From NCBI RefSeq assembly GCF_036507355.1, contig NZ_AP027877.1: 64,000 bases of DNA. One strand, 5' to 3'. The notes under the pieces are model-generated. The model was not told where the DNA came from and searched no databases. It saw nothing but the letters and a program-made list of their open reading frames with translations. Origin of the DNA: Escherichia coli. GTDB lineage: Bacteria > Pseudomonadota > Gammaproteobacteria > Enterobacterales > Enterobacteriaceae. The translations under genes were made by a program, and so were the position numbers. Below are positions 25,644 to 52,806 of the stretch, piece by piece (the stretch's first letter is position 1; every line of letters starts with the position of its first letter).

Positions 25644-25730
25644 GCCCGGATGGTGGAATCGGTAGACACAAGGGATTTAAAATCCCTCGGCGTTCGCGCT
25701 GTGCGGGTTCAAGTCCCGCTCCGGGTACCA
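25644..25730 (+). tRNA. leuZ: tRNA-Leu (anticodon UAA), integration target of the island
   Basis: GCCCGGATGGTGGAATCGGTAGACACAAGGGATTTAAAATCCCTCGGCG...CCGGGTACCA, long variable arm. Confidence 0.95.
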
Positions 25731-31810: not shown

Positions 31811-34474
31811 TCAGACTGGAAGACAGAATGTCGGATATTTACGGGCTATGATATCCATCAGTGACTTCATTCGCGGTGTTACAGAACTAAATTTCATTTG
31901 GGGTATTTTTGCTCTTACCGCATTTTTTACATCAGTCACCGTTACTGAATAGCCTTCTGACGTCAGCCATTCAGCAACCTCTTTACAGGAATAACTTTTT
32001 TTATCTTTCAGCATCAGCCCCCATTGGCACTGAGTCAGCGCCCGGAGAAATAGTCTGACTAAAATATCATCACTACGTTTGCTTCCGACTTTTAGTTTCA
32101 TATCAGAAAACACCGTCCGGCAATAGAGAAAATCACACCAGTCATCCCAGTCAGCCAGGGTCTTCAGTGTATGCGTTTGCCGCCAGTCGTCGAAAAGGGA
32201 GCGTTGCTGCAGAGCCTCTTCCATATTATCCCACGGGCGGGAAAACATCAGTAGATGCCCTTCATTCATGGCGGGCCGTACGGGCTGGCGTTTGAAATCG
32301 AATTCCAGATTAAGACGGATATCCTGTTCCCGGGATACCAGATCGCTTTCCGAGAGCCACATCTCACGCGTTGATATCAACGTACTTCGGGATAACGTCT
32401 GACCGGGTAAACGATTAAGGTAAAGATCTACCATATAGTCGTTATAGTCACTGCGTGGAATATCGGCAGGAGGTTTGACGCCAGCCCTGGCATGAACAAC
32501 AGGTTTTCCCTGAATCGCTTTATAGGTTAACTGCCCCCGGGTTTTCATGGCGATAAGCTGGCTGACCTCATGCTTACATGTCAACATTGATGAACCCGGA
32601 TCAACAATATCGCACAGCGACTGGAAGCGGGAAGACAGTGGACCGCTCATGTTTATCTTGTCAAGTGGGCAATTTGTCAAAAAACCATCGGTTGTGACGC
32701 TGACAACCGATGAATCAGAAGGCAAAGCATTCATGAGTTCCCCGACAACGGCGCGGATAAATCCCGTCACATGCGCAGCAAAGAATGGCTGAGTAACCGA
32801 TGATGGTGGGAGGGATCTGTTTAATCCACGGGCAGTATCAAAGGCGGTTTTGGCGCGAAGGCCCTGAGCAAGTTTGCCATAAAGCGAGTTGCCAATTTCT
32901 TTCCAGAATTTCTCCTCCAAAGAACCCTTAATATGGCGATTACGGTTCTCACGGACCTGTTGAACAAAGGGAAGAAACACCGATGTTGATTCGCTGTTAT
33001 GTGGGGAGGTGTCACAGATCCAGGGGACGATGATCCCATTATGGATCGTCATCTCTGCCCCGAGCGACAGAGCAAGTTCGATTTCAGGTGCCGTTGCCCA
33101 TGATTCGCCACTTAATGGAAAGAATAACCCATATTGATCGGTCCGAACCGGCAGGCTGGGATAGGGAACTGATTCCGGGAACCGAAATGTGACAAGCGCA
33201 AATCCCATCACATGCCCACAGTAATCGTCCGGATTTTTACTGAGGCGGATGTTTCCGTAATCGGGTATGAGGATATCTAATAGCCCGGTGGTATACGCTC
33301 CAGCCAGATCGTAGTCATACCAGTGATCAGACGGTGTAACCCCCATCATAAAACACTCATTGCGTCCGCCGTGGTAACAGTTGATCGGGAACGTTTCAAA
33401 CAACTCTCTTGAAGGAACACTGGCGGGGTTTTTAATCGTCCGGAATGCCTGTTTCTCCGTGAGCCAGAGTTCACGGGTTTTAATGTGTGTCCCAAGGCAG
33501 ACTTCAGGAGACATATTGTTTTCTTTAAGTGTTTTGGTGAACCGTGAAACTGCCATCGCCCCGATGGTGGCGGGGACACGATCAATCATCAGCTCCCGGG
33601 CGCAAAAATTGCGAACCTGTAAAGCATAACGAACCGCAATCTCGGCATCCCGCAGAGCATAGGCTTCAAACCCTGCTCTGTCGCCCAGAAGATATTCACG
33701 CATATTGGTTATGGAATAAGGTGCAGGAATGGTGAGTTTGGGAAGACCCAGTAATTCACCACATTCAGCCAGACCCATACCCCCGGGAGTGATAAGCAGT
33801 GTATCGATGAAAGCTACGTTACTGCAACGCGGAGGGGAAGTTCGTTTGTCAAACATTATCTGTTCAGTCTTTACGCGACGTTCCTGCTGTTCATCAAAAT
33901 CGATACCGTAACGATTTTTGAAGCTGCTGACAGTACCGCGTATTCCTTTCAGAAGAATTTTGTAGTCTGACCAGAAATTGGCAAAGGAGGCGATATCCGC
34001 ACGAATGAAATGCGCATATATATTAATAATACCGGGCCATTTTGTAATCACACCCGTTTCAAGAAGCGGTGTAATCGTTTGACAGAGAAATTCCTTAAAA
34101 GACAGTCGGGATTTTTTCTGTGAGTCAGGTGGATAGATAATGTTCGATATACCAGTGTTATCGGGTAAGACGACATAACTCTGATATGACAGAATATCAT
34201 TCTGTTGTGTTTCAGGATTGAAAACATATTCGGTATCAAAACCGATATGGAGTGTCAGGTCACTTGAAATAACAGATACTTTTTTTGATGCAGGTGGTAT
34301 CACAGGATAATCATCAAGCGTTTTAGGTCTTTTAAGATTGAGCGCTGGCTCTGAAGTCACGGACTGATACCCCGAGGCGGCAGCGAGGATATCCTGCAAA
34401 TTATGGCTCATAGTTAACTCCGAAAAAATGCCGGGAGCTGTGTCCCGGCATAAAGAATCAAGATTTAATAACAT
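31811..34474 (-). CDS. Family-B DNA polymerase of the primer-independent PolB (piPolB) type
   Basis: Exo I FDTEY, motif B KEIGNSLYG (KxxxNSxYG), motif C-like VTTDG, and KTRG in AMKTRGQLTY in place of the KxY motif; 887 aa. Confidence 0.85.
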   Translation of the reverse strand: MLLNLDSLCRDTAPGIFSELTMSHNLQDILAAASGYQSVTSEPALNLKRPKTLDDYPVIPPASKKVSVISSDLTLHIGFDTEYVFNPETQQNDILSYQSYVVLPDNTGISNIIYPPDSQKKSRLSFKEFLCQTITPLLETGVITKWPGIINIYAHFIRADIASFANFWSDYKILLKGIRGTVSSFKNRYGIDFDEQQERRVKTEQIMFDKRTSPPRCSNVAFIDTLLITPGGMGLAECGELLGLPKLTIPAPYSITNMREYLLGDRAGFEAYALRDAEIAVRYALQVRNFCARELMIDRVPATIGAMAVSRFTKTLKENNMSPEVCLGTHIKTRELWLTEKQAFRTIKNPASVPSRELFETFPINCYHGGRNECFMMGVTPSDHWYDYDLAGAYTTGLLDILIPDYGNIRLSKNPDDYCGHVMGFALVTFRFPESVPYPSLPVRTDQYGLFFPLSGESWATAPEIELALSLGAEMTIHNGIIVPWICDTSPHNSESTSVFLPFVQQVRENRNRHIKGSLEEKFWKEIGNSLYGKLAQGLRAKTAFDTARGLNRSLPPSSVTQPFFAAHVTGFIRAVVGELMNALPSDSSVVSVTTDGFLTNCPLDKINMSGPLSSRFQSLCDIVDPGSSMLTCKHEVSQLIAMKTRGQLTYKAIQGKPVVHARAGVKPPADIPRSDYNDYMVDLYLNRLPGQTLSRSTLISTREMWLSESDLVSREQDIRLNLEFDFKRQPVRPAMNEGHLLMFSRPWDNMEEALQQRSLFDDWRQTHTLKTLADWDDWCDFLYCRTVFSDMKLKVGSKRSDDILVRLFLRALTQCQWGLMLKDKKSYSCKEVAEWLTSEGYSVTVTDVKNAVRAKIPQMKFSSVTPRMKSLMDIIARKYPTFCLPV

Positions 34475-39778: not shown

Positions 39779-41302
39779 ATGAACGACAAAATCAGTCAGG
39801 ACACGATCAACAAAGCCCTGTGGGCCGCGTGTGATACGTTCCGTGGCACCATCAGTGCTGATACCTATAAAGACTTTATCCTTACCATGCTGTTCCTCAA
39901 GTACATTTCAGATGTCTGGCAGGATCACTACGACGAATATAAAGTGCAATATGGCGATGCGCCGGAACTGATTGAAGCGATGATGGCGAACGAGCGCTTC
40001 GTGTTGCCGAAAAGCGCCAGTTTCTATGCGTTGTACGAGCGACGTCATGAGCCGGGCAACGGTGAGCGTATCGATCAGGCGCTGCATGCGATTGAAGAAG
40101 CCAACGGCACCAAACTGAAAGATGCCGGGAAAAGTGTCTTCCAGGATATTTCGTTTAACACTGACCGTCTGGGCGAAGAAAAACAGAAGAACACCATCCT
40201 GCGTCAGTTGCTGGAAGACTTTGCCGGTGAAGATCTTAACCTGAAGCCAAGCCGTGTCGGTACGCTGGACGTTATCGGTAATGCTTACGAATATCTGATC
40301 AAAAACTTTGCTGCCAGCGGTGGGCAGAAAGCCGGGGAATTCTATACCCCGCCGGAAGTTTCGGACCTGATTGCTGAACTGCTCGATCCGCAACCGGGTG
40401 ATACCATCTGCGATCCGGCCTGTGGTTCGGGTTCATTGTTGATGAAGTGTGGGCGTAAAATTGTCTCCGGGCATGATAGTCGTAACTATGCATTGTTCGG
40501 TCAGGAAGCGATCGGTTCTACGTGGTCGCTGGCGAAAATGAATATGTTCCTGCACGGGGAAGACAACCATAAAATCGAGTGGGGCGATACCATTCGTAAC
40601 CCGAAGCTGCTCGATAAAAATGGCGACCTGATGCTGTTTGATATCGTGACCGCTAACCCACCGTTCAGCCTCGATAAGTGGGGCCATGACGAGGCCGAGA
40701 ACGATAAGTTTGGCCGTTTTCGTCGCGGTGTACCGCCGAAGACTAAAGGAGATTACGCTTTTATCTCGCATATGATCGAAACCCTGAAACCGGGAACTGG
40801 CCGTATGGGCGTAGTTGTGCCACACGGTGTGCTTTTCCGTGGCTCCAGCGAAGGTAAAATTCGCCAGAAACTGATCGACGAAAATTTGCTGGATGCGGTA
40901 ATTGGTCTGCCGGAAAAACTGTTCTACGGTACGGGGATTCCGGCTGCGATTCTGATTTTTAAAAAGCAGAAAGTTGATGACAAGGTGCTGTTTATCGATG
41001 CCAGCCGTGAATTCAAGGCAGGTAAAAACCAGAACCAGCTTAGCGAAGAAAACATTAAGAAAATCGTCAAGACCTACCGTGATGGCGATAACGTCGAGAA
41101 ATACGCCTATCTTGCCAGCCTGAAGGAAATTCAGGACAACGACTATAATCTCAATATCCCGCGCTATGTCGATACCTTTGAAGAAGAGGATGAGATTGAC
41201 CTGCTGGCGGTGCGAGCAGAACGCGAGCAACTGAAGGCGGAATTGGCGAAGCTGGAAACGGAGATGGCTGGATATTTGAAGGAGTTGGGTTATGGCTCGT
41301 GA
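39779..41302 (+). CDS. hsdM: Type I restriction-modification methyltransferase subunit HsdM
   Basis: N6-adenine MTase motifs (DPACGSGS, TANPPFS), 507 aa. Confidence 0.92.
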   Translation: MNDKISQDTINKALWAACDTFRGTISADTYKDFILTMLFLKYISDVWQDHYDEYKVQYGDAPELIEAMMANERFVLPKSASFYALYERRHEPGNGERIDQALHAIEEANGTKLKDAGKSVFQDISFNTDRLGEEKQKNTILRQLLEDFAGEDLNLKPSRVGTLDVIGNAYEYLIKNFAASGGQKAGEFYTPPEVSDLIAELLDPQPGDTICDPACGSGSLLMKCGRKIVSGHDSRNYALFGQEAIGSTWSLAKMNMFLHGEDNHKIEWGDTIRNPKLLDKNGDLMLFDIVTANPPFSLDKWGHDEAENDKFGRFRRGVPPKTKGDYAFISHMIETLKPGTGRMGVVVPHGVLFRGSSEGKIRQKLIDENLLDAVIGLPEKLFYGTGIPAAILIFKKQKVDDKVLFIDASREFKAGKNQNQLSEENIKKIVKTYRDGDNVEKYAYLASLKEIQDNDYNLNIPRYVDTFEEEDEIDLLAVRAEREQLKAELAKLETEMAGYLKELGYGS

Positions 41303-42566
41303 TTCGCTTTACCCAGTGAGCGTTAAAGCTGGAAAACCGATCCTTGGAATGCTACCTACAGGATGGCAAAAGTTATCATTAGAAAAGTGCTTAAATATAG
41401 AGGCAAGAAAGGCATATATACAAGATAATCAAGAGTATGACTTAGTTACAGTAAAGCGCTCCAGAGGTGGCGTAATAAGACGTGAGCATCTTAAAGGAAA
41501 AGATATCTCCGTAAAAAGTCAATTCTATATTAAAGAAGGCGACTTTCTCATATCAAAACGACAAATTGTGCACGGTGCTTGCGGTCTTGTACCTAAAGAA
41601 CTTTCTGGCTCAATTGTATCGAATGAATATTGTGTGCTTACAGGGAAGTCCGGTTTTTATCTTCCTTATATGGAATTTCTATCGGAGTCTCTATATTTCC
41701 AGCAAACCTGCTTCCACTCTAGCATTGGTGTGCACATAGAGAAAATGATTTTTAAGTTAGATAGTTGGTTTAAGTGGCCATTTAATATCCCCCCACTGTC
41801 TGAACAAAAGAGAATCGTTAAAATCCTGTCAACCTGGGATAAGGCGATTTCGGTGACGGAAAAGCTTCTCACCAACAGTCAGCAGCAGAAAAAAGCCCTG
41901 ATGCAGCAATTGCTTACCGGGAAAAAACGCTTGCTGGATGAGAGGGGGGTGAGGTTTAGTGGGGAGTGGAAGAGAGTAAAACTGGGTGCGATAGCCGATA
42001 TGAACAGTGGAGGTACTCCGAAATCAACGGTTGAAGAGTATTATGGCGGGAATATCCCATGGGTATCTATTTCTGATATGACATCTAATGGAAAGTGGAT
42101 TGCTACAACTGAAAAATATCTGACTGAATTAGGATTGAACAGTTCATCCGCAAGAATATATCCAAAAAACTCGGTTCTTTATGCTATGTATGCTTCTATA
42201 GGTGAATGCAGCATTGCTGCTGTAAATTTAACATCTTCGCAGGCAATCTTGGGTATTAGACCAAAAGATTGTTTAAATTATGAGTTTTTATATTTCTATC
42301 TTACATCATTAAAAGAAAAAATAAAACTGCAAGGCCAGCAAGGTACACAGTCCAACCTAAACGCCGGAATGGTTAAAGAGTTTGAACTAGACTTACCCAG
42401 TATAAGAGAACAACAAAAAATCGCCGCCGTCCTGTCCGTCGCCGATGCCGAAATCTCCACGCTGGAGAAAAAACTCGCCTGCCTGAGAGATGAGAAAAAA
42501 GCCCTGATGCAACAGCTACTGACTGGCAAACGTCGTGTTAAGGTCGATGAGGCGGTTGCCGAATGA
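41292..42566 (+). CDS. hsdS: Type I R-M specificity subunit HsdS
   Basis: Two target-recognition domains separated by repeated conserved helices (KKALMQQLLTGKKRL / KKALMQQLLTGKRRV); overlaps hsdM. Confidence 0.9.
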   Translation: MARDSLYPVSVKAGKPILGMLPTGWQKLSLEKCLNIEARKAYIQDNQEYDLVTVKRSRGGVIRREHLKGKDISVKSQFYIKEGDFLISKRQIVHGACGLVPKELSGSIVSNEYCVLTGKSGFYLPYMEFLSESLYFQQTCFHSSIGVHIEKMIFKLDSWFKWPFNIPPLSEQKRIVKILSTWDKAISVTEKLLTNSQQQKKALMQQLLTGKKRLLDERGVRFSGEWKRVKLGAIADMNSGGTPKSTVEEYYGGNIPWVSISDMTSNGKWIATTEKYLTELGLNSSSARIYPKNSVLYAMYASIGECSIAAVNLTSSQAILGIRPKDCLNYEFLYFYLTSLKEKIKLQGQQGTQSNLNAGMVKEFELDLPSIREQQKIAAVLSVADAEISTLEKKLACLRDEKKALMQQLLTGKRRVKVDEAVAE

Positions 42567-43246
42567 AACTGACGAAAAGCGGTCCACTGACTGACCGGGA
42601 AATCGACTGGCTGGAAGAAATATTAATGAAGTATGGAATGGATGATTCTGTACTCTGTTTCTCTGAGCTGGATGGATTGCTGACGGCGATTTTATCAGGT
42701 CCAAATATGGTTTCACCCAATATCTGGCTGAGTGCTATTTGGGGAGGAGGCGATTATCATCCGAAATGGTCATCTGAGAGAGAGATGGAGCGTTTTGTCA
42801 GTCTGTGTTTTCAGCATATGAACGATATCGCTGGTTGCCTTTATGACGCCCCTGAACTGTTTGAGCCGATTTTCAATGAGCGTGAGGTAAAGGGGGAAAA
42901 ATATACCATTGTGGAAGAGTGGTGTTTTGGTTATATGAAAGGAAAGTCACTGGATGACTGGTCTGGTCTTCCCGGTGAGTTACGGCCTTCTCTGGAAGTG
43001 ATCGCTCTTCATGGCGTGGAGAAGAATTTTCCTGTACTTGAGAAAATGACCAGAGAGCAGTTTGAGAAAAGTATTTCCCTTATTAAGCCTGCTGCACTGG
43101 CACTTTATCAGTACTGGTTGTCAGTGAGAATGTCAGAGGCATCATCCCGGCCTGTTCCAGTGAAGGGGGCAGAAAACATGCCCGGGCGAAATGACCCGTG
43201 TCCGTGTGGCAGCGGTAAAAAATTTAAGAAGTGCTGTCTGCATTGA
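42563..43246 (+). CDS. YecA-like UPF0149 protein with C-terminal SEC-C metal-binding motif, nested in the hsd operon
   Basis: Aligns along its length with chromosomal YecA at 52141-52806; ends [20 protein letters not shown]; ATGA overlap with the hsdS stop. Confidence 0.8.
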   Translation: MKLTKSGPLTDREIDWLEEILMKYGMDDSVLCFSELDGLLTAILSGPNMVSPNIWLSAIWGGGDYHPKWSSEREMERFVSLCFQHMNDIAGCLYDAPELFEPIFNEREVKGEKYTIVEEWCFGYMKGKSLDDWSGLPGELRPSLEVIALHGVEKNFPVLEKMTREQFEKSISLIKPAALALYQYWLSVRMSEASSRPVPVKGAENMPGRNDPCPCGSGKKFKKCCLH

Positions 43247-43295
43247 TGAATCTTCATGTGACCAGTAGCGAGTAGCGCCAGAAAGAAAAGGATTA

Positions 43296-46200
43296 ATGAT
43301 GAACCAGACGTACACGCCTAAATTCCAGGAAGAATACAGCGCCAAAATTCCGGCACTGACGTTACTGACCAGCCTCGGCTGGACGTTTTTATCTCCGAAA
43401 CAGATTATGGATTACCGGGGCTATAAACAGGATGAGGTGGTGCTGCGTCCGGTTCTGCGTGAAGAGCTGTCGAAGCGTTCCTTTATGGCGGGTGGCAAAA
43501 CCTGCCAGTTATCGGAAAAAGCACTGGATAACCTGATATCACAGGTCTGTTCTCCGGCGCTGAATGAAGGGCTGCTCAAAGCCAATGAACGGATGTATAA
43601 CCATCTGCTCTACGGTATCGCCGTCACGGAGTTTGTCGATGGCAAGAAGGTGAACCCCACCATTGCGCTGATCGACTGGGAACATCCGGAAAGTAACCAG
43701 TTCCATTTTACCGAAGAATTTACGGTATTGCGGTCAGGCGGTGTCGAAACCCGCAGGCCGGATATTGTGTGTTTTGTGAATGGTATCCCGCTGGCCGTCA
43801 TTGAAGCGAAAAGCCCGGCGGGTCACGGCAAGAAAGGGCCAACCATTGACGAAGGGATATCCCAGAGTATCCGCAATCAGCTCAACGACGAAATCCCGCA
43901 GCTGTTTGCTTACAGCCAGATATTACTGTCGATTAACGGGCATGACGGGCGCTACGGTACCTGTCATACACCAATGAAATTCTGGGCGGCATGGCGCGAA
44001 GAAGATATTACTTACGCGCAGATGTATGCGCTGCGCAACCATAAGTTATCGACTGAACAAATTCATGCGTTGTTTGATGATCGTCCTTCAGTCGATCTCA
44101 AATGGTATCAACAGTTAATCGATGGGGGGGAACTGGCAGTCAGCGGGCAGGATAAGCTGCTCATCAGTCTGCTTTCACCGGAACGTCTGCTGGAGATGAC
44201 CCGCTTCTTCACCCTGTTTGATAAAAAAACCGGAAAAATTGTTGCCCGCTATCAGCAGGTGTTCGGTATTAAAAGACTGCTGGAACGCATCAGTACCCGC
44301 AGACCAGACGGGGGCAGGGAAGGTGGGGTGATCTGGCATACCACGGGGTCAGGTAAATCTTACACCATGGTATTCCTCAGCAAGGCGCTGATTCTTCATG
44401 ACAGCCTGAAGCAGTGTCGTATTGTGGTGGTGACGGACCGCGTGGACCTTGAAGGGCAGCTCAGCGGCACTTTTGTCTCTGGTGGCGAACTGGCAGGGAA
44501 GGATGATAAGGCCAAAGCGATGGCAACCTCAGGTCAGAAGCTGGCACAGCAGATTGGCTCTGGTAAAGAACGTATAATCTTTACCCTTATCCAGAAATTT
44601 AACTCAGCGACAAAATTGCCTGAATGCGTCAACACCAGCCCCGACATCATCGTTCTGATTGATGAAGGACACCGTAGCCAGGGTGGTGAGAACCATGTGC
44701 GAATGAAACTGGCACTGCCGAACGCCGCCTTTGTGGCATTTACTGGTACGCCATTGCTAAAAGAAGATAAGACCACCAATAAATTCGGGCCGATTGTCCA
44801 CGCTTATACCATGCAGCGAGCGGTAGAAGATAAAGCCGTTACACCTTTGCTGTATGAAGAACGTATTCCCGACCTTGAGGTTAACGATCGGGCAATAGAT
44901 GCCTGGTTTGATCGTATTACCGATGGGTTAAGCGAAGCGCAAAAAGCCGACCTTAAGCGTAAATATGCCCGTAAAGGTGAGGTTTATAGTGCAGATGATC
45001 GCATCCGTCTGATCGCACTCGATATCGCCACGCACTTCTCGAAGAATATTGATGAGGGGCTGAAAGGCCAGCTTGCCTGCGACAGCAAGATTTCCGCCAT
45101 CAAATATAAAAAGTATCTTGATGAAGCCGGGTTGTTTGAGTCAGCAGTAGTTATCAGCCCGCCGGATACCCGGGAAGGGAATACCGAAGTGGATGAAAGC
45201 AAACTGCCGGAAGTGACGAAATGGTGGAAGGATAATGTCGGCACGCAGGATGAGTCTGTGTATACCCGTAATATCATCAGTCGTTTCGATACCGATGAGA
45301 AGCTCAAATTGCTGATAGTCGTTGATAAACTGCTCACCGGGTTTGATGAGCCGAAGAATACCGTGCTGTATATCGACAAGCCGCTTAAGTCCCACAACCT
45401 TATCCAGGCGATTGCGCGGGTGAACCGACTGCATCCACTAAAAAAGTTCGGTCTGCTGATTGATTATCGCGGTATTCTGGCTGAGCTGGACACGACTATC
45501 GGCAAATATCAGGACCTCGCCTCCCGAACTCAGGGCGGATACGATATCAAAGATATTGACGGGCTGTACAGCGCCATGAGCTCTGAATACAAGCGCCTGC
45601 CGCATCTGTATAACCAGCTGTGGGCCATATTTGCCGGTGTTAAAAACAAAAATGATACTGAGCAGTTACGTGCGGTACTGGTGCCTAAAATGGAAGAACG
45701 TGACGGAGAGATGGTCGATATCCATCAGAAAACCCGTGATGATTTCTTCGAGGCGTTAACGGCCTTTGCCGGATGCCTGAAAGTGGCACTGCAGTCCGCT
45801 ACCTTCTTCACCGACAAGAGCTTTACGGAACAAGACCGAAATCTCTATAAAGAAACCGTAAAACAGATGTCCAGCCTGCGCCAGTGGGCGATGCAGGTAA
45901 GTGGAGAGCAGGTCAATTATGACGACTACGCTGAGCAGGTGAAAAAACTGCTGGATAAGCATGTCACCGGCGTTGAGGTTCGTGAACCGGATGGCGTGTA
46001 TGAAGTCGGTAAAATGGGCAAGAGCGAAAAGCCCGAAGAGTGGGACAACAATAAAACCCGCAATGAAACCGACATCATTAAAACCCGCGTGACGAAGATG
46101 ATTGAGCAGGAATTGCGTGATGACCCGTATGCTCAGGAGGCATTTTCAAAACTCCTGCGTATGGCTATCGAAGAGGCTGAAAAACTGTTTGACCATCCGC

Positions 46201-46583
46201 TGAAACAGTACCTTTTGTTCCGTGAATTTGAAGAACAGGTTGAAGCCCGTAAGCTCAGCGATATCCCGGATGCACTGGCGGTAAACAAGCATGCTCAGGC
46301 GTATTACGGTGTATTTAAAAAAGAGCTACCTGAGGTTTTTGCGGTAAACGACGTTCAGGTGCAGGATAAGTGGACCAAGCTGGCTTTTGAAGTGGACAAC
46401 ATTATCGTCAAAGCGGTGGCAGAAAACTCCCTGAACCCCCAGGACATTGAGAAAGTCGTTAAGACAAGTCTGCTACCACTGCTGTTTACGGCCTGCCGGG
46501 AAATTGGTGCCGGAATGAATCAGGTTAACCGTATTGTGGAAACCATCATCCAGATACTGCGCGTTGGTTTGATGAAATCATGA
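43296..46583 (+). CDS. hsdR: Type I restriction endonuclease subunit HsdR
   Basis: 1095 aa; Walker A TGSGKSYT and DEAH-like box DEGHRS. Confidence 0.92.
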   Translation: MMNQTYTPKFQEEYSAKIPALTLLTSLGWTFLSPKQIMDYRGYKQDEVVLRPVLREELSKRSFMAGGKTCQLSEKALDNLISQVCSPALNEGLLKANERMYNHLLYGIAVTEFVDGKKVNPTIALIDWEHPESNQFHFTEEFTVLRSGGVETRRPDIVCFVNGIPLAVIEAKSPAGHGKKGPTIDEGISQSIRNQLNDEIPQLFAYSQILLSINGHDGRYGTCHTPMKFWAAWREEDITYAQMYALRNHKLSTEQIHALFDDRPSVDLKWYQQLIDGGELAVSGQDKLLISLLSPERLLEMTRFFTLFDKKTGKIVARYQQVFGIKRLLERISTRRPDGGREGGVIWHTTGSGKSYTMVFLSKALILHDSLKQCRIVVVTDRVDLEGQLSGTFVSGGELAGKDDKAKAMATSGQKLAQQIGSGKERIIFTLIQKFNSATKLPECVNTSPDIIVLIDEGHRSQGGENHVRMKLALPNAAFVAFTGTPLLKEDKTTNKFGPIVHAYTMQRAVEDKAVTPLLYEERIPDLEVNDRAIDAWFDRITDGLSEAQKADLKRKYARKGEVYSADDRIRLIALDIATHFSKNIDEGLKGQLACDSKISAIKYKKYLDEAGLFESAVVISPPDTREGNTEVDESKLPEVTKWWKDNVGTQDESVYTRNIISRFDTDEKLKLLIVVDKLLTGFDEPKNTVLYIDKPLKSHNLIQAIARVNRLHPLKKFGLLIDYRGILAELDTTIGKYQDLASRTQGGYDIKDIDGLYSAMSSEYKRLPHLYNQLWAIFAGVKNKNDTEQLRAVLVPKMEERDGEMVDIHQKTRDDFFEALTAFAGCLKVALQSATFFTDKSFTEQDRNLYKETVKQMSSLRQWAMQVSGEQVNYDDYAEQVKKLLDKHVTGVEVREPDGVYEVGKMGKSEKPEEWDNNKTRNETDIIKTRVTKMIEQELRDDPYAQEAFSKLLRMAIEEAEKLFDHPLKQYLLFREFEEQVEARKLSDIPDALAVNKHAQAYYGVFKKELPEVFAVNDVQVQDKWTKLAFEVDNIIVKAVAENSLNPQDIEKVVKTSLLPLLFTACREIGAGMNQVNRIVETIIQILRVGLMKS

Positions 46584-47335
46584 GTGAAAAAGAATCGCCA
46601 TCAATGAAAGCGTTACGCATTGTCTATGGTGATGATGTCATCACCGTACAGTGTGTTCCGCGTCAGGTCGTAAAGGGCAGGGTGCTCATCAAGGTTTATC
46701 CGGACTGCCGGGTTGTGGCCTCTGTACCGCCTGAAACACCGGAGCACGAGGTATTGTCTGCGCTGAAAAAAAGAGGGCGCTGGATATACCAGCAACTGCG
46801 TGATTTCAGGGAGCAACAGACACACATTGTTCCGCGTCAGTATGTCAGCGGAGAAAGCCATTATTATCTCGGTAAGCAATATCAGTTGAAAGTGACAGAA
46901 GACGCTACTGTGCCGCAACGAGTGAAAATGTTGCGTGGGCGTCTGGAAGTGACTGTCAGACACAAATCGGCAGAAAAGATTAAAGCCTTGCTGGCTGAAT
47001 GGTATCGGGAACGTGCCAGAGATGTTTTTCAGCGCAGGCTTGATTTACTGATTCCGCAGACCCTTTGGGTCAGTGAGCGTCCTCCGATACGTCTGCGGGC
47101 GATGCAAACGCAATGGGGCAACTGTTCAGCAAAAGGCTGTCTGACCCTGAATCCATGGCTGGTTAAGGCATCCTCAGAATGTATCGATTATGTTTTGCTA
47201 CATGAGTTATGCCATGTGGCTGAGCACAACCACAGCGAGGAGTTTTACCGTCTGATGGGGCAGGTTATGCCTGGGTGGGAAAAGGTCAAGAAACGACTGG
47301 ATGGGATGGCTGGGATGTTGTTGGCTGATATGTAA
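46580..47335 (+). CDS. HExxH zinc metallopeptidase (M48/YgjP-like) after hsdR
   Basis: HELCH motif; ATGA overlap with the hsdR stop. Confidence 0.7.
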   Translation: MSEKESPSMKALRIVYGDDVITVQCVPRQVVKGRVLIKVYPDCRVVASVPPETPEHEVLSALKKRGRWIYQQLRDFREQQTHIVPRQYVSGESHYYLGKQYQLKVTEDATVPQRVKMLRGRLEVTVRHKSAEKIKALLAEWYRERARDVFQRRLDLLIPQTLWVSERPPIRLRAMQTQWGNCSAKGCLTLNPWLVKASSECIDYVLLHELCHVAEHNHSEEFYRLMGQVMPGWEKVKKRLDGMAGMLLADM

Positions 47336-47393
47336 CTTATCAATATGAGTTCTTAAGGGTTTGGTCAGTCTCGTTAATGTAGGGAGTATAATA

Positions 47394-49232
47394 ATGAGTA
47401 AGTTAGATAATAAAATTGAAGCACGCCATCGTAATTTGTTTGATGTTCTAAATGCGCAAAAATATACCGTTGATTACTTTCAGCGCGAGTATAGCTGGGG
47501 TGAGAAACATATTGAAGAGTTGGTTACAGACTTAACATCTGCGTTTCTCAATGAATACACCGTCGGTGATTCTCGGGAGCAGGGTGAAAACTACAATAAT
47601 TATTACTTAGGACCATTTGTTGTGAGTAGTAAAGATGGGAAACGGAGTATTATTGATGGTCAGCAACGACTGACTTCATTAACTTTATTTCTAATTTACC
47701 TCCATAACCTTCAGAAAGAACTTAAATATGAAGAGAAAATAGAATCAATGATTTTCTCCGAGTTACGTGGCAGCAAATCATTCAATATAGTAGTTGAAGA
47801 CAGAATACCTTGCATGGAAGCATTGTTTAATTTTGGTAGCTATAGTTTAGTTGATGGGGATGATGAGTCAACCCATAACATGGTGGAGAGATATCAGAAT
47901 ATCACAGATGCTTTTCCTGATGAATTAAAAGGTCAGGCTTTTCCTTTTTTTATCGACTGGCTTAAGTATAACGTTATTATGGTTGAGATAGTTGCCTATT
48001 CAGATGAAAACGCATATACCATCTTTGAGACTATGAATGACCGAGGATTAAATCTTACTCCGTCCGAAATGCTTAAAGGTTTTTTACTTTCACGCTTTCA
48101 TCAGGGAGATAAACGCCAAAAGGTAAATGAACTCTGGAAAAAAGCGATGATGGATTTAAAAAACTATGATAAAGATGAAGACCAACGTTTTTTCCAGTCA
48201 TGGTTGCGTGCTCAATATGCTGATACAATACGCCCGGGTAAAGCTGGTTCAAAAAATGAAGACTTTGAAAAAATAGGTACGCGTTTTCATAGCTGGGTTA
48301 GAGATAATCTTCAGGCGGTGGGATTGGACCCAGATAATGGTGAGACATTCGAACGATTTATACAAAAAAACTTTTTGTTTTATTTGAATGCCTATACACA
48401 AATACTGAATGCTGAGAGAGCATTAACGCACCAACTGGAATATGTATTTTATATCCACCATTGGGGTATTGCACCTACTTTAAGTTTCCCTTTGATGTTG
48501 GCTCCATTAAATGTAGGTGACAGTCCTGATGCTGTGATAGCCAAAATAAACCTGGTGGCGCGCTATATTGAAACATTTGTTGTTCGTCGTTCTGTTAATT
48601 TCCGAAAATTCTCTGCCAGTTCTATTCGTTACACAATGTACAGTCTTGTTAAAGAAATTCGTGGTAAAAGTATTGAAGAATTAAAAGATTTGTTATCTAA
48701 GAAGTTATCCGAAATGCCAGATACTTTTGCAGGAATGGAAGAGTTTCGTCTCCATGGTCAAAACTATCGTTTTGTGAAGTTTTTGCTTTCTCGTATAACT
48801 GCGTGGGTTGAGCAGCAAGCCGGAATGAGTACAACCTTCATTACATATTATCAGCCAGAACACGGTAAGCCATTTGAAGTCGAGCATATTTGGGCCGATA
48901 AATATGAACGTTACTCTGATGAGTTTGAACAAGAGCACGAATTTAACAATTACAGAAATCGCTTAGGTGATTTGGTTTTATTACCTAGAGGCTCAAACCA
49001 GTCATATGGTGATTTGTGTTACGATCAAAAGCAACCTCATTACATCAAAGAGAATCTCCTGGCTAAATCGTTATGCCCATTGGCATATATGAATAACCCT
49101 AATTTCAATCAGTTGAGAAATGTATTCGGATTGCCTTTCAAACCACATGATTCATTTAAAAAACAAGATGTCGATGAACGACAGTCTTTGTATAAAATAA
49201 TTTGTGAGAATATTTGGGACCATAATTTATAG
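47394..49232 (+). CDS. GmrSD-like DUF262/DUF1524 nuclease (type IV restriction-like)
   Basis: N-terminal DGQQR hallmark (IIDGQQRLTSL) and C-terminal His-Me-finger-like FEVEHIWAD; GGGAG RBS before ATG 47394. Confidence 0.7.
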   Translation: MSKLDNKIEARHRNLFDVLNAQKYTVDYFQREYSWGEKHIEELVTDLTSAFLNEYTVGDSREQGENYNNYYLGPFVVSSKDGKRSIIDGQQRLTSLTLFLIYLHNLQKELKYEEKIESMIFSELRGSKSFNIVVEDRIPCMEALFNFGSYSLVDGDDESTHNMVERYQNITDAFPDELKGQAFPFFIDWLKYNVIMVEIVAYSDENAYTIFETMNDRGLNLTPSEMLKGFLLSRFHQGDKRQKVNELWKKAMMDLKNYDKDEDQRFFQSWLRAQYADTIRPGKAGSKNEDFEKIGTRFHSWVRDNLQAVGLDPDNGETFERFIQKNFLFYLNAYTQILNAERALTHQLEYVFYIHHWGIAPTLSFPLMLAPLNVGDSPDAVIAKINLVARYIETFVVRRSVNFRKFSASSIRYTMYSLVKEIRGKSIEELKDLLSKKLSEMPDTFAGMEEFRLHGQNYRFVKFLLSRITAWVEQQAGMSTTFITYYQPEHGKPFEVEHIWADKYERYSDEFEQEHEFNNYRNRLGDLVLLPRGSNQSYGDLCYDQKQPHYIKENLLAKSLCPLAYMNNPNFNQLRNVFGLPFKPHDSFKKQDVDERQSLYKIICENIWDHNL

Positions 49233-49290
49233 CAAAGTTAGGGTGTTAATTAATCTGTAATGGCATCATGATTTTTAAAAGGAGGTTGAA

Positions 49291-50418
49291 TTGCGTTCTG
49301 AAACGTTTTTTGTCAAATTTATTGAACAACTGAAAGGTATTTCGGTTGAGGATGATGTTGAATTCAATTTTTTTGAATTGGGTGGTTCCGGATATCTCGA
49401 AAATCCAACTACGGATTTGATGGCTTTGTTTATGGGAGCCCAGAAAATGGTGCCGCCATGGTTGCTCAAAGCATTGCTATGTTGCCTGGATGATTCCCTC
49501 GATGTTGATGAAATTGATTTCACTTCTCTGGAGCTAATGAGAGAGGCCCGAACAGAAGATGGGAAATATATTGATATTCTTATCAGACATGATGAATTCA
49601 TTATAGGTATTGAGCATAAAGTTCTGGCTGATACATATAATCCTTTTCCCAGCTATGTAAGTCTCATTGATAGTTACGGCGGCAACAATCAAAAACTATT
49701 TCGCTGTATATTAAAGCCTGACGGTAACAGCGCTAAAGGCGTAGACGGTTGGCAACTGATCAATTATTCACTGCTGCTGGAAACCGCCATTCGACGTCTG
49801 GGGTTGGAGATGATGAATCAAGAGTTCAGCAAGTGGACTGTTTTTTATCAGGAGTTTTTAAGTCATCTTAAAAAATTGAGTGAGGTTAGTATGGATAAGG
49901 TATCTGATAAAAATGTGGAGTTTGTCACTGAAAATTTCTCAGCTTTGATAAAATCGGTTCAACTGCTGGAAATGTACCAAAATGCTATCACCGAGGAAGC
50001 TAAATCGGTTGTCTCAGAGGTATTGCCTGATATTCATATTGCAACAGGTATTAATAACTGGAAGGGTTACTATAAAGCAATTCATCTGATGCCGGGATGC
50101 TGGGGGCAAGGTAAAACAGGAATTACGTTAGTTTATCGCCCTTCAGAGGATGGACGAGATGAAGCTGAGTTCTACGTATATGGATGGATACATTCAGATG
50201 ATTACCCTGAAGTTAATGCACTAAAAGAAGAAATAAGAGTTGCTTTAAGTGCTGGAGATTTCATTCCAACAGCTAGCCCTGAGGACTATGAAGTATCAAT
50301 TACTGGGAAGGGGAAAGTGCTTGAACTGAGTTTTTGGGGGAATACGAGAAGCAAAAAAGATGCACTGGTTCTTCTTAAGGATATGACTAAGTGGATGGAC
50401 TCAAAAATAAGAACATAA
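49291..50418 (+). CDS. PD-(D/E)xK-type nuclease-fold protein (TTG start)
   Basis: Candidate catalytic core ...GKYIDILIRHDEFIIGIEHKV (D...ExK); AAGGAGG RBS. Confidence 0.55.
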   Translation: MRSETFFVKFIEQLKGISVEDDVEFNFFELGGSGYLENPTTDLMALFMGAQKMVPPWLLKALLCCLDDSLDVDEIDFTSLELMREARTEDGKYIDILIRHDEFIIGIEHKVLADTYNPFPSYVSLIDSYGGNNQKLFRCILKPDGNSAKGVDGWQLINYSLLLETAIRRLGLEMMNQEFSKWTVFYQEFLSHLKKLSEVSMDKVSDKNVEFVTENFSALIKSVQLLEMYQNAITEEAKSVVSEVLPDIHIATGINNWKGYYKAIHLMPGCWGQGKTGITLVYRPSEDGRDEAEFYVYGWIHSDDYPEVNALKEEIRVALSAGDFIPTASPEDYEVSITGKGKVLELSFWGNTRSKKDALVLLKDMTKWMDSKIRT

Positions 50419-50522
50419 AGTAATATGACTGAGTGATGACGATCTTTTTTAAATTGTGGATTATTAGGCTGGTAATTGAAGCGCCGAATAGACAGATATT
50501 GGAATAAAAGGAGAATATTCAA

Positions 50523-51704
50523 ATGATTTATCAGTGTGATACTTGCAGTAGAACGACTTTTGAGGTTAATTGTCCCTGGTGTAGTGGAGTTTCGCCTGTA
50601 AAAACGTCTGCATGGGGTTCAGCATCATCGACCGCACAAGCAATAGGCATACAACGTATGACACCATTGAATCCATCGTTTTATCCCGAATTTCAGTATC
50701 GTTCAAAGGGTGTTCTAAAAGATCTATTTGGGAAAAAGAAAGAGCAAACTCAGCTTAATCAATTGCTTGAAAATGTTCTCAAAAAATACTCCAGTTTAAA
50801 AGATCCATATTTTACTAACTTCATTTACACTTCCAGATTCTCACATAATAATAAATCGGAAGCAGATTACTCAACAGATAATGGTACATACTCCGAATTA
50901 CAACTTTTCCGTGAGGTGTTGGTCAGAAAAGGGTTCAATGAGCTTGAGCAGTTACCTGAGCTATTAGATAAATTACTCCTTACCACGTCATTTAACGCTC
51001 TTTATTATGGTTTCGCTAAGGAAGTTAAACGGCATATTAAATCCACACTTACTGAATCCTTGAAGTCATGGATTGAGGAAGCGGGTACCACTTTTAGGGC
51101 AGATCTTTCATTGTTTCTATTCTATATATGGAGCAATAAAATAGAGTTCTCATCAGTAGAGTTCAATGAAAAAGCGGAGGCTACGCCTGGTGTTCCTTTA
51201 GTTTCATTTGATGAAGTTAAAAAATACTTAGCTGTGTGCGAACATATTTATTTTGATATTCTGGTTGATAGATTAGCTACACGGCTCGAACATTTTAACC
51301 CTAACAAATTCGTCACCATGTATTTAGTTGATGCAATGGACGGTTTCCAGTTTGAAGATTTCCTTGTGGAAGTATTCCAGACTATGGGCTATGACGTCAA
51401 AGAAACCAAGAGAACGCAAGATCAGGGGGCAGATCTCTTCGTCACTCGATTTGGTAAGGATATGGTTATTCAGGCGAAAAATTATTCTGGTTCTGTAGGT
51501 AACTCGGCGGTGCAGCAGGTGATCTCTGCTAAAACATTCTATGGTTGTGATGAGGCGATGGTTGTGACTAATTCCTACTTCACACGCTCTGCCAAAGAAT
51601 TAGCTGAATCAGCCTTGGTACGTTTGATCGACAGGGATGAACTGCAAAAGTATCTGGATGATTACAATCAGAAGATAATTGAAGATTTCCAGTCAAACTC
51701 GTAA
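50523..51704 (+). CDS. Zinc-ribbon protein with C-terminal Mrr-like restriction endonuclease domain
   Basis: N-terminal CDTCS...CPWC; C-terminal ...GADLFVTRFGKDMVIQAKNYSGSVG... resembles the Mrr catalytic domain. Confidence 0.6.
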   Translation: MIYQCDTCSRTTFEVNCPWCSGVSPVKTSAWGSASSTAQAIGIQRMTPLNPSFYPEFQYRSKGVLKDLFGKKKEQTQLNQLLENVLKKYSSLKDPYFTNFIYTSRFSHNNKSEADYSTDNGTYSELQLFREVLVRKGFNELEQLPELLDKLLLTTSFNALYYGFAKEVKRHIKSTLTESLKSWIEEAGTTFRADLSLFLFYIWSNKIEFSSVEFNEKAEATPGVPLVSFDEVKKYLAVCEHIYFDILVDRLATRLEHFNPNKFVTMYLVDAMDGFQFEDFLVEVFQTMGYDVKETKRTQDQGADLFVTRFGKDMVIQAKNYSGSVGNSAVQQVISAKTFYGCDEAMVVTNSYFTRSAKELAESALVRLIDRDELQKYLDDYNQKIIEDFQSNS

Positions 51705-51889
51705 CTTTGCAGTCATATAGATATAGCAAAGGACAGGTAGGCCTCCGTGAGAGGGGGACTTACCTGTGCAGATTCTGTGCTCAAAGTTATCCAAGTCTAT
51801 CTATTTACTGCCAATTACAGTAAAATGAGTAAGCAATTACAGCAAAGTTTCGCAATGCACTGCTATGTAACTCATTGATCCTGCGTAGA

Positions 51890-52022
51890 ATTTAAAATCC
51901 CTCGGCGTTCGCGCTGTGCGGGTTCAAGTCCCGCTCCGGGTACCATGGGAAAGATAAGAATAAAATCAAAGCAATAAGCAGTGTCGTGAAACCACCTTCG
52001 GGTGGTTTTTTTGTGCCTGCAA
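51890..52022 (+). repeat. Right direct repeat (attR): copy of tRNA-Leu 3' half plus terminator
   Basis: Matches 25675-25805 with a few mismatches and a 2-bp indel; begins inside the anticodon arm, so no complete tRNA here. Confidence 0.85.
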
Positions 52023-52140
52023 CTTGTCGTTACACCCTCCTTAATTTTTAATCACCGGCAAAGCCACTCAAAAAGTATCTCTGATACGGACCGGCATGTA
52101 AGATAGGTGTTGGCGAGTTGAGATCCACAAGGAAAAGCGT

Positions 52141-52806
52141 ATGAAAACGGGACCGTTAAACGAAAGTGAGTTGGAATGGCTGGACGATATTCTGACCAAA
52201 TACAACACTGACCACGCCATCCTTGATGTGGCGGAGCTGGACGGTTTATTGACGGCGGTGTTGAGTTCTCCGCAAGAGATTGAACCGGCACAGTGGCTGG
52301 TTGCCGTGTGGGGTGGGGCTGACTATGTGCCGCGCTGGGCGTCAGAGAAAGAGATGACGCGCTTTATGAACCTGGCTTTTCAACATATGGCCGATACCGC
52401 AGAGCGTCTGAACGAATTCCCGGAGCAGTTTGAGCCGTTATTCGGCTTGCGAGAAGTTGATGGCAGCGAGCTGACGATTGTTGAGGAGTGGTGCTTTGGC
52501 TATATGCGGGGCGTGGCACTTTCTGACTGGTCAACATTGCCCGATTCGTTAAAACCAGCGCTGGAGGCGATAGCGCTGCACGGTACTGAGGAAAACTTCG
52601 AGCGGGTAGAGAAGATGTCGCCAGAAGCGTTTGAAGAGAGCGTAGATGCCATTCGACTGGCGGCGCTTGATCTACATGCGTACTGGATGGCGCATCCGCA
52701 GGAAAAAGCTGTTCAGCAACCGATCATAGCAGAAGAGAAACCGGGGCGTAACGATCCTTGCCCGTGCGGTAGTGGTAAGAAATTTAAGCAGTGCTGCCTG
52801 CATTAA
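52141..52806 (+). CDS. yecA: UPF0149 SEC-C-motif protein YecA
   Basis: 221 aa ending [20 protein letters not shown]; leuZ-adjacent position restored once the island is ignored. Confidence 0.9.

What the first reader, a model, noticed from the sequence alone, without database searches (positions are those of the whole stretch)
49291..51704. Adjacent PD-(D/E)xK protein and zinc-ribbon-Mrr-like nuclease: candidate uncharacterised two-gene defence module
A 375-aa protein with a PD-(D/E)xK-like core (DILIRHDEFIIGIEHK) is followed by a 393-aa protein with an N-terminal Cys4 ribbon and a C-terminal Mrr-like catalytic region. Both are AT-rich, on the same strand 105 bp apart, each with its own strong RBS, at the attR end of a defence island. 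Neither looks like a canonical single-gene Mrr or McrBC.
Basis: inference. Interest (0 to 1): 0.6.

Follow-up and report, generated by a model that had tools for sequence, protein, structure and literature searches.

The report
Two independent nuclease genes, not a pair
The two neighbouring nuclease genes are real and probably anti-phage, but they are two separately exchangeable single-gene cassettes at the cargo end of an E. coli pipolin island, not a dedicated two-gene system.

Summary
Gene A (49291-50418, 375 aa) is a PD-(D/E)xK nuclease of Pfam PDDEXK_4. Gene B (50523-51704, 393 aa) has a Cys4 zinc ribbon, an unassigned helical region and an intact Mrr-type nuclease domain. Both are AT-rich, lie on the + strand 104 nt apart, and sit just inside the attR of an island inserted in tRNA-Leu.

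The two-gene reading is not supported. A matches PADLOC's untested single-gene candidate PDC-S26. B belongs to a large, highly conserved stand-alone family found in Enterobacterales, Pseudomonas and Burkholderiales. Across 83 loci, A and B are adjacent in only 11, all from one shallow clade (A >=89% and B >=93% identical to the window's proteins). Twelve loci have A without B, and 60 have B without A.

Within the same island family, three genomes lack exactly 49267-50522, the A cassette. One E. coli clade carries a broken A next to an intact B. B has no conserved partner anywhere. Its neighbours elsewhere are other defence genes such as Septu, Gabija, PD-Lambda-1 and a retron.

The island fits the published description of enterobacterial pipolins, whose variable module is reported to carry type I RM, PDC-S12, PDC-S26, HEC-06 and MZA. 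Interest is low to moderate. B is an uncatalogued Mrr-type defence candidate that merits testing by itself.

The parts
49291..50418 (+). Gene A: a 375-aa PD-(D/E)xK (PDDEXK_4) nuclease of the PADLOC single-gene candidate family PDC-S26. Nuclease core at about residues 25-166, a helical linker, and a C-terminal alpha/beta domain at about 245-375 with no Pfam match.
49573..49620 (+). Catalytic motif of A: D95-x12-E108-H-K110 (DILIRHDEFIIGIEHK).
   Evidence: D95, E108, K110 and the upstream E85 are invariant in 34 homologues down to 29% identity. They sit on strands 93-99 and 103-109 of the model.
49267..50522 (+). The A cassette, defined as an exchange unit: 24 nt upstream of A (including its RBS), gene A, and the whole A-B spacer.
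   Evidence: L003, L015 and L016 align with the window up to 49266 and resume exactly at 50523. L009, L010, L013, L017 and L078 share homology only from 49267-49272 onward.
50523..51704 (+). Gene B: a 393-aa stand-alone nuclease with a zinc ribbon, a family-private helical region and a Mrr_cat domain.
   Evidence: ORF. Pfam Mrr_cat, E 9.8e-30. More than 405 clusters at 90% identity, full length, 59-88% identical among the listed hits from Enterobacterales to Burkholderiales. Residues 1-264 occur only in proteins of this architecture among 1.84 billion representatives. No Pfam match for residues 1-264.
50535..50582 (+). Cys4 zinc ribbon of B: C5-x2-C8 ... C17-P-W-C20.
   Evidence: All four cysteines are invariant in 26 homologues. 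Four of the ten most distant full-length representatives showed no CxxC...CxxC motif.
51330..51653 (+). Mrr-type catalytic domain of B (residues 270-377), with E278, D304 and Q317-A-K319.
51918..51945 (+). attR of the island: a 28-bp exact copy of the 3' end of tRNA-Leu. attL is at 25703-25730 inside the tRNA gene.
   Evidence: 2 matches, 0 expected.
39779..49232 (+). Same-strand upstream array that A and B terminate: hsdM, hsdS, the PDC-S12 YecA-like gene (42563-43246), hsdR (43296-46583), an M48/YgjP-like peptidase (46580-47335) and a DUF262/GmrSD gene of the HEC-06 type (47361-49232).
   Evidence: ORFs. RefSeq annotation of the identical locus. PADLOC: HEC-06 at 4.7e-41 and PDC-S12 at 2.4e-99.

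Best explanation
The region holds two autonomous single-gene nuclease cassettes. They sit next to each other at the distal cargo end of an E. coli pipolin, an island integrated in tRNA-Leu between pgsA and yecA. Gene A is a PDC-S26-family protein. Its N-terminal PD-(D/E)xK nuclease is the effector, and its uncharacterised C-terminal alpha/beta domain probably senses or gates activity. Gene B belongs to a separate, widespread and strongly conserved family. A zinc ribbon and a family-private helical region control a Mrr-type nuclease domain, most likely as a stand-alone Type IV-like or trigger-activated DNA endonuclease. The two genes are probably transcribed as the tail of one long same-strand defence array (hsdMS, PDC-S12, hsdR, M48, DUF262, A, B). 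Each acts by itself, and their adjacency reflects cassette stacking in the variable module of the island. Shown here: domain content, intact catalytic residues, independent phylogenetic distribution, exact cassette junctions and defence-island neighbourhoods. Inferred: anti-phage function, DNA as the substrate, the sensor role of the accessory domains and co-transcription.
For: Independence: over 83 loci, profile searches find A and B together in 11, A alone in 12 and B alone in 60. All 11 joint loci belong to one shallow clade (A 89-100%, B 93-100% identical). A homologues at 77%, 71%, 51%, 48%, 45%, 42%, 33%, 32%, 29% and 27% identity have no Mrr_cat neighbour. Clustering the neighbours of B finds no family conserved outside the enterobacterial island. 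Cassette junctions: L003, L015 and L016 lack exactly 49267-50522, and other loci share only 49267-51704 with a different upstream slot. DNA upstream of B is not conserved across contexts, and homology begins at the B start codon. Dispensability: E. coli p10A and relatives have A split into 119-aa and 202-aa fragments next to an intact B. One strain has an IS5 element in B. In E. coli, A occurs in 214 of 5426 genomes and B in 245. Family identity: A matches PDC-S26 at E 1e-50, which PADLOC lists as an untested single-gene candidate. The N-terminal 264 residues of B are found only with Mrr_cat. Defence context of B elsewhere: Septu PtuA, Gabija GajB, PD-Lambda-1 and an AbiO/Nhi-like gene, and a retron. 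Island identity: the published pipolin site and cargo list match this island (PMC11551731).
Against: Within the shallow clade the 2.4-kb A+B block is found behind at least three different upstream neighbours: DUF262, a 130-aa hypothetical protein, and CBASS plus a 245-aa protein. This means it has moved or persisted as a block. No terminator-like site separates A from B, so they are probably co-transcribed. Neither gene has been tested for phage resistance, so a clade-specific functional interplay cannot be excluded from sequence alone. The unusually strong conservation of B (about 60% identity between E. coli and Paraburkholderia) is atypical for fast-evolving defence genes.
Confidence: 0.78

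Rival explanations
1. A and B are a genuine two-gene defence system, at least in the enterobacterial pipolin clade. One nuclease would sense or license the other, or the two would back each other up, and the pair would be selected and transferred as a unit.
For: The pair shows the same order, strand and roughly 104-107-nt spacing in 11 loci from E. coli, Citrobacter, Klebsiella, Buttiauxella, Intestinirhabdus, Kluyvera and Enterobacter. The block 49267-51704 is the only shared segment in loci with different upstream genes, including a CBASS context. No terminator-like site lies between the genes. In E. coli, A is essentially never found without B (214 genomes against about 213 with the pair).
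Against: All joint loci fall in one shallow clade. Every more distant A homologue examined (10 of them) and every B at or below 95% identity from the genome scan lacks the partner. B at 92-97% nucleotide identity also occurs directly after DUF262 with A precisely absent. A has decayed in one E. coli clade while B stays intact. PADLOC's curators independently catalogued A's family as a single-gene candidate. B's private N-terminal region is always fused to its own effector, as expected of a self-contained sensor-effector protein.
Confidence: 0.12
2. One or both genes are not anti-phage defences. They would instead serve the mobile element or DNA metabolism, for example in element maintenance or addiction, exclusion of competing elements, or repair and recombination.
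For: Neither family has experimental data: no paper mentions the accessions, and PDC-S26 is explicitly untested. B is far more conserved than typical defence genes. Some A homologues sit among housekeeping genes with no island context, for example Xenorhabdus L006 between the crr and cysK-like genes. A Kluyvera copy is resident next to pgsA.
Against: Both genes sit in the defence cargo module of an island that also carries type I RM, PDC-S12 and an HEC-06-type GmrSD gene. B's neighbours in unrelated genomes are Septu, Gabija, PD-Lambda-1, a retron and MZA. A's neighbours include SIR2, NERD, SMODS, KAP NTPase, AIPR and OLD-like genes. A toxin-antitoxin relationship between A and B is excluded because each occurs without the other.
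Confidence: 0.1

Closest known systems
PDC-S26 (PADLOC phage-defence candidate, single gene; Payne et al., bioRxiv 10.1101/2024.01.29.577857)
   Same: Gene A matches the best PDC-S26 profile at E 1e-50 over about 80% of the profile, and it matches seven further PDC-S26 profiles. It lies next to a type I RM system, the kind of context used to nominate PDCs. PDC-S26 is reported among the most frequent defence systems of enterobacterial pipolins.
   Different: There is no contradiction. PDC-S26 is only a bioinformatic candidate with no assay, mechanism or structure. The last 75 or so residues of A fall outside the profile match.
Mrr (E. coli K-12 Type IV modification-dependent restriction endonuclease) and other Mrr_cat enzymes (MspJI, AspBHI, the LlaBIII nuclease domain)
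   Different: B has no recognisable Mrr_N winged-helix, SRA or other known modified-DNA reader. Residues 1-264 are a zinc ribbon plus a helical region with no Pfam match, and they are found only in this family. Modification dependence has not been tested.
PDC-S02 (PADLOC single-gene candidate) and the C-terminal nuclease domain of Zorya ZorD
   Same: Both share a Mrr-like domain with B residues 259-385 (E 2.7e-16 and 2.3e-21).
   Different: The matches cover only the nuclease domain: 39% of the PDC-S02 profile and the last 130 or so positions of the 1071-position ZorD profile. B has no helicase and lacks the N-terminal part of PDC-S02.
McrBC and other multi-gene Type IV systems
   Different: Neither gene has an AAA+ GTPase, and no partner is conserved. 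The A-B pairing does not hold across homologues.

Membership tests
PD-(D/E)xK nuclease superfamily, Pfam PDDEXK_4 (gene A) | Significant match to PF14281 | tested here: met
   E 9.5e-13, residues 25-166 against model positions 1-160 of 183
PD-(D/E)xK nuclease superfamily, Pfam PDDEXK_4 (gene A) | Catalytic D ... (D/E)xK residues on the central beta strands | tested here: met
PDC-S26 (PADLOC candidate, gene A) | Match to a PDC-S26 profile over most of its length | tested here: met
   PDLC04981, E 1e-50, profile positions 8-295 of 358. I did not check PADLOC's own coverage cut-offs.
PDC-S26 (PADLOC candidate, gene A) | Functions as a single gene, with no obligate partner | tested here: met
   Ten distinct homologues in 12 loci have no B and no shared neighbour.
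PDC-S26 (PADLOC candidate, gene A) | Confers phage resistance | not testable with these tools
   The authors describe the PDCs as untested. No later report was found.
Mrr-type Type IV restriction endonuclease (gene B) | Mrr_cat nuclease domain with conserved D and (E/Q)xK | tested here: met
Mrr-type Type IV restriction endonuclease (gene B) | N-terminal reader domain for modified DNA (Mrr_N winged helix, SRA or similar) | tested here: not met
   No Pfam family matches residues 1-264 at E <= 0.001. No PDB sequence match. The structural model of residues 1-160 is of low confidence, so a cryptic reader fold is not excluded.
Mrr-type Type IV restriction endonuclease (gene B) | Cleaves only modified DNA | not testable with these tools
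   Requires in vitro or in vivo assays.
PDC-S02 (gene B) | Match over most of the profile | tested here: not met
   Only profile positions 185-313 of 334 are matched, which is the nuclease domain.
Zorya ZorD (gene B) | SWI2/SNF2 helicase fused to the Mrr-like nuclease, with ZorABC neighbours | tested here: not met
   Only profile positions 935-1065 of 1071 are matched. There are no Zor genes nearby.
Dedicated two-gene defence system (A+B) | Homologues of both genes stay adjacent across divergent lineages | tested here: not met
   A and B are adjacent in 11 of 83 loci, all with A >=89% and B >=93% identity. A is alone in 12 loci and B alone in 60.
Dedicated two-gene defence system (A+B) | Neither gene is lost separately within the element | tested here: not met
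   A is precisely absent in L003, L015 and L016. A is disrupted while B is intact in L081 and relatives.
Toxin-antitoxin pair (A+B) | The toxin is never found without its cognate antitoxin | tested here: not met
   Each gene is common without the other.
Pipolin (the surrounding island) | Integration at tRNA-Leu between pgsA and yecA with terminal direct repeats | tested here: met
   tRNA-Leu at 25644-25730, 28-bp repeats at 25703 and 51918, and yecA at 52141. The site matches that described in PMC11551731 and PMC7385651.
Pipolin (the surrounding island) | Encodes a primer-independent family-B DNA polymerase (piPolB) | tested here: inconclusive
   The 886-aa ORF at 31811-34474 (-) gives only a weak DNA_pol_B_2 hit (E 0.0098). 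I did not compare it directly with a reference piPolB.

The most novel reading that the evidence does not exclude
Gene B represents an uncatalogued, widespread single-gene defence family of about 390 aa: a zinc ribbon, a private helical domain and a Mrr-type nuclease. Its N-terminal region would be a new kind of sensor or DNA reader. The unusually strong conservation from Enterobacterales to Burkholderiales would then reflect recognition of a conserved phage or DNA feature. A weaker variant that is also not excluded is that the A+B block works cooperatively in enterobacterial pipolins.
Probability: 0.45. Interest if true: 0.4.

Novelty: new member of a known kind. Interest (0 to 1): 0.25.

Why it matters
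If it holds, this shows in detail how the variable module of an E. coli pipolin is assembled from single-gene cassettes with exact, recurrent junctions at 49266/49267, 50522/50523 and about 51704. It also yields two concrete single-gene targets for phage-resistance tests. A is a representative of the untested candidate PDC-S26. B is a conserved Mrr-type family that PADLOC 2.0.0 matches only through its nuclease domain. It does not reveal a new type of multi-gene immune system, and the nuclease effectors are of well-known kinds.

Tried and rejected
- **Named systems:** PADLOC, NCBIfam and PHROGs give no named or characterised system for either protein. NCBIfam gives nothing above its cut-offs.
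- **Solved structures by sequence:** a PDB sequence search finds no relative of A and only a chance hit for B.
- **Universal partner of B:** neighbour clustering over 66 loci found none. A 140-aa upstream ORF recurs in only five Pseudomonas loci and is unrelated to the 150-aa ORF upstream of B in E. coli L077.
- **Conserved promoter or leader carried with B:** upstream DNA is not conserved across contexts. The sigma-70 and terminator scans were not above the shuffled expectation.
- **B's N-terminal domain fused to other effectors:** none was found among 1.84 billion representatives.
- **RNA families and junction repeats:** no Rfam hits in 46500-52300 and only chance-level short repeats.
- **Literature:** searches by accession, PF14281 and PDC-S26 found no functional study.
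- **Plasmids:** there is only one full-length B, on a Burkholderia megaplasmid, and the A relatives on plasmids are distant and have no Mrr neighbour.
- **Rejected readings:** McrBC-like, because there is no AAA+ GTPase. Toxin-antitoxin, because each gene occurs alone.

Full report
**1. Observation**

Gene A is 49291-50418 on the + strand, 375 aa, with a TTG start. Gene B is 50523-51704 on the + strand, 393 aa. RefSeq annotates the identical DNA in E. coli HKUOPY1 with the same boundaries, as 'PD-(D/E)XK nuclease family protein' and 'restriction endonuclease'.

A matches Pfam PDDEXK_4. The quoted motif is residues 95-110. E85, D95, E108 and K110 are invariant in 34 homologues down to 29% identity.

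GC content is 0.37-0.38 here against about 0.50 in the flanking chromosome. The spacer is 104 nt. Both genes have strong Shine-Dalgarno sequences.

The genes lie 214 nt inside the attR of an island. The island is bounded by an exact 28-bp repeat of the tRNA-Leu 3' end at 25703-25730 and 51918-51945. The chromosomal genes yecA, tyrP, yecH and ftnA follow.

**2. What each gene is**

Gene A hits eight PADLOC PDC-S26 profiles. The best is E 1e-50 over about 80% of the profile. PDC systems are 145 untested 'phage defence candidates' nominated because they are embedded in RM, BREX or DISARM loci (Payne et al., bioRxiv 10.1101/2024.01.29.577857). The 'S' series is the single-gene set.

PADLOC matches gene B only through its nuclease domain: the ZorD C-terminus, 39% of the PDC-S02 profile, and mREase_IV. 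Residues 1-264 have no Pfam match. Searched against 1.84 billion representative proteins, they are found only in proteins of the same architecture and size.

The B family is large, with more than 405 clusters at 90% identity. It is strikingly conserved: 59-88% identity over the full length among the listed hits, from Enterobacterales to Pseudomonas and Burkholderiales. The model of the N-terminal half is of low confidence, so that half remains structurally unassigned.

**3. Are they a pair?**

I gathered 83 loci and searched each with profiles of both families.

| Content of locus | Number of loci |
|---|---|
| A and B together | 11 |
| A alone | 12 (10 distinct homologues) |
| B alone | 60 (51 with at least 1.4 kb of upstream sequence) |

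All 11 joint loci belong to one shallow clade: A 89-100% and B 93-100% identical to the window's proteins.

A homologues at 77% (Kluyvera), 71% (Pantoea), 51%, 48%, 45%, 42%, 33%, 32%, 29% and 27% identity have no Mrr_cat neighbour. Instead they sit beside integrases, SIR2, NERD/SMODS, KAP NTPase, AIPR or housekeeping genes.

Every B at or below 95% identity in the species-level genome scan lacks A within up to 8 kb. Clustering B's neighbours finds nothing conserved beyond the enterobacterial island itself.

Elsewhere, B sits next to Septu PtuA, Gabija GajB, PD-Lambda-1 and an AbiO/Nhi-like gene, and next to a retron. It is therefore a recurrent inhabitant of defence islands that stands by itself.

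**4. Cassette structure**

Block alignment of window 46500-52200 against related islands shows exact, recurrent junctions.

- L003 (E. coli 0H23), L015 (Atlantibacter) and L016 (Enterobacter) align up to 49266 and resume at 50523, the start codon of B. They lack exactly the A cassette.
- L009, L010, L013, L017 and L078 share only 49267-51704 with the window and have a different gene in the upstream slot. L002 shares from 49333 and also has a different upstream gene.
- Downstream of B, some islands carry the MZA system (L002, annotated) or other genes.
- DNA upstream of B is not conserved between contexts.

In E. coli, A is present in 214 of 5426 complete genomes and B in 245. One clade (p10A and relatives) has A split by an internal deletion while B is intact. 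One strain has an IS5 element in B.

These facts argue against obligate cooperation and against a toxin-antitoxin relationship. The counter-evidence is that the A+B block persists behind at least three different upstream neighbours. No terminator-like site separates the genes. A clade-specific interplay therefore cannot be excluded, and I give it about 0.12.

**5. Context**

The island occupies the site described for E. coli pipolins, the tRNA-Leu gene between pgsA and yecA. The published account describes enterobacterial pipolins as 'bimodular', with a conserved core and a distal, frequently exchanged defence module. That module is reported to carry type I RM, PDC-S12, PDC-S26 and, more rarely, mza, hhe and HEC-06 (PMC11551731; PMC7385651).

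The window matches this cargo list item by item:
- type I RM (hsdM, hsdS and hsdR);
- a YecA-like gene embedded between hsdS and hsdR that matches PDC-S12 at 2.4e-99;
- a DUF262/DUF1524 gene that matches HEC-06 at 4.7e-41;
- gene A, which matches PDC-S26.

An 886-aa ORF at 31811-34474 on the minus strand gives a weak DNA_pol_B_2 hit (E 0.0098). This is consistent with a divergent piPolB but does not prove it.

**6. Mechanism**

The best-supported reading (confidence about 0.78) is that A and B are autonomous single-protein nuclease defences stacked in the pipolin cargo module. They are probably read through from the upstream same-strand array.

For A, the PD-(D/E)xK core would be the effector, and the C-terminal domain a regulatory or sensing module. 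For B, the Mrr-type domain would be the effector, controlled by the zinc ribbon and helical region. Either modification-dependent (Type IV-like) cutting or activation by a phage cue is plausible, and the sequence data cannot separate the two.

Shown here: the domains, the intact catalytic residues, the independent distribution, the cassette junctions and the defence neighbourhoods. Inferred: anti-phage function, the substrate, the trigger and co-transcription.

**7. Novelty and score**

A belongs to an already catalogued but untested candidate family. B is a new member of a well-known kind, a stand-alone Mrr-type nuclease with an unassigned N-terminal region. The proposed two-gene system is not supported. 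Interest is 0.25. The most novel surviving reading is that B defines a new, widespread single-gene defence family with a private sensor domain (probability about 0.45, interest if true about 0.4).

Noticed in passing
window 25703-51945: The whole 26-kb island has the hallmarks of an E. coli pipolin. It is inserted at tRNA-Leu between pgsA and yecA with 28-bp terminal direct repeats. It carries tyrosine recombinases and DUF2787 genes in the RefSeq annotation of the same locus. An 886-aa ORF (31811-34474, minus strand) has a weak DNA_pol_B_2 hit (E 0.0098) and is a likely piPolB.
   Followed up: partly
window 42563-43246 (+): A 227-aa YecA-like (SEC-C motif) gene is embedded between hsdS and hsdR. 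It matches PADLOC candidate PDC-S12 at E 2.4e-99. A paralogous chromosomal yecA lies just outside the island at 52141-52806.
   Followed up: partly
window 47361-49232 (+): A DUF262/DUF1524 GmrSD-like protein of 623 aa (612 aa in RefSeq) matches HEC-06, a GmrSD-like defence validated by Payne et al. In related islands this slot instead holds an unrelated 130-169-aa hypothetical gene.
   Followed up: partly
window 46580-47335 (+): An M48/YgjP-like (DUF45) metallopeptidase gene overlaps the hsdR stop codon by 4 nt. It is conserved with hsdR in 11-12 related loci. Its role beside type I restriction subunits is unexplained here.
   Followed up: no
window 49266/49267, 50522/50523 and about 51704-51712: Recombination junctions between cargo cassettes recur at the same nucleotide positions in islands from different genera, and they coincide with gene starts and stops. 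No repeat or site that could explain this precision was found. The string ATGATTT occurs both at 49268 and at the B start (50523).
   Followed up: partly
L073, L074, L075 (Kluyvera): Kluyvera carries a resident, solo A paralogue (77% identical) right next to pgsA at the same tRNA locus. In L073 a pipolin-type island with A+B has inserted beside it, giving the order A, B, A'.
   Followed up: partly
L031, L034, L035, L036, L060 (Pseudomonas): A 140-aa ORF of unknown function lies directly upstream of B on the same strand in five Pseudomonas loci (37-92% identical to each other). It has no PADLOC match, and it is absent from other B contexts.
   Followed up: partly
L002 14807-24007 (annotated); L017 downstream of B: In E. 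coli HCP8S3_I1 (L002) the five-gene MZA anti-phage system is inserted between B and attR. L017 has a 697-aa ORF in the same position that I did not check against MzaA. This shows a further cargo slot downstream of B.
   Followed up: no
L077 (E. coli LT883142.1) 8911-10053: A second, divergent B homologue (74% nucleotide identity) lies in a different E. coli island, next to a retron St85-type system and a DUF927 primase-like gene.
   Followed up: no
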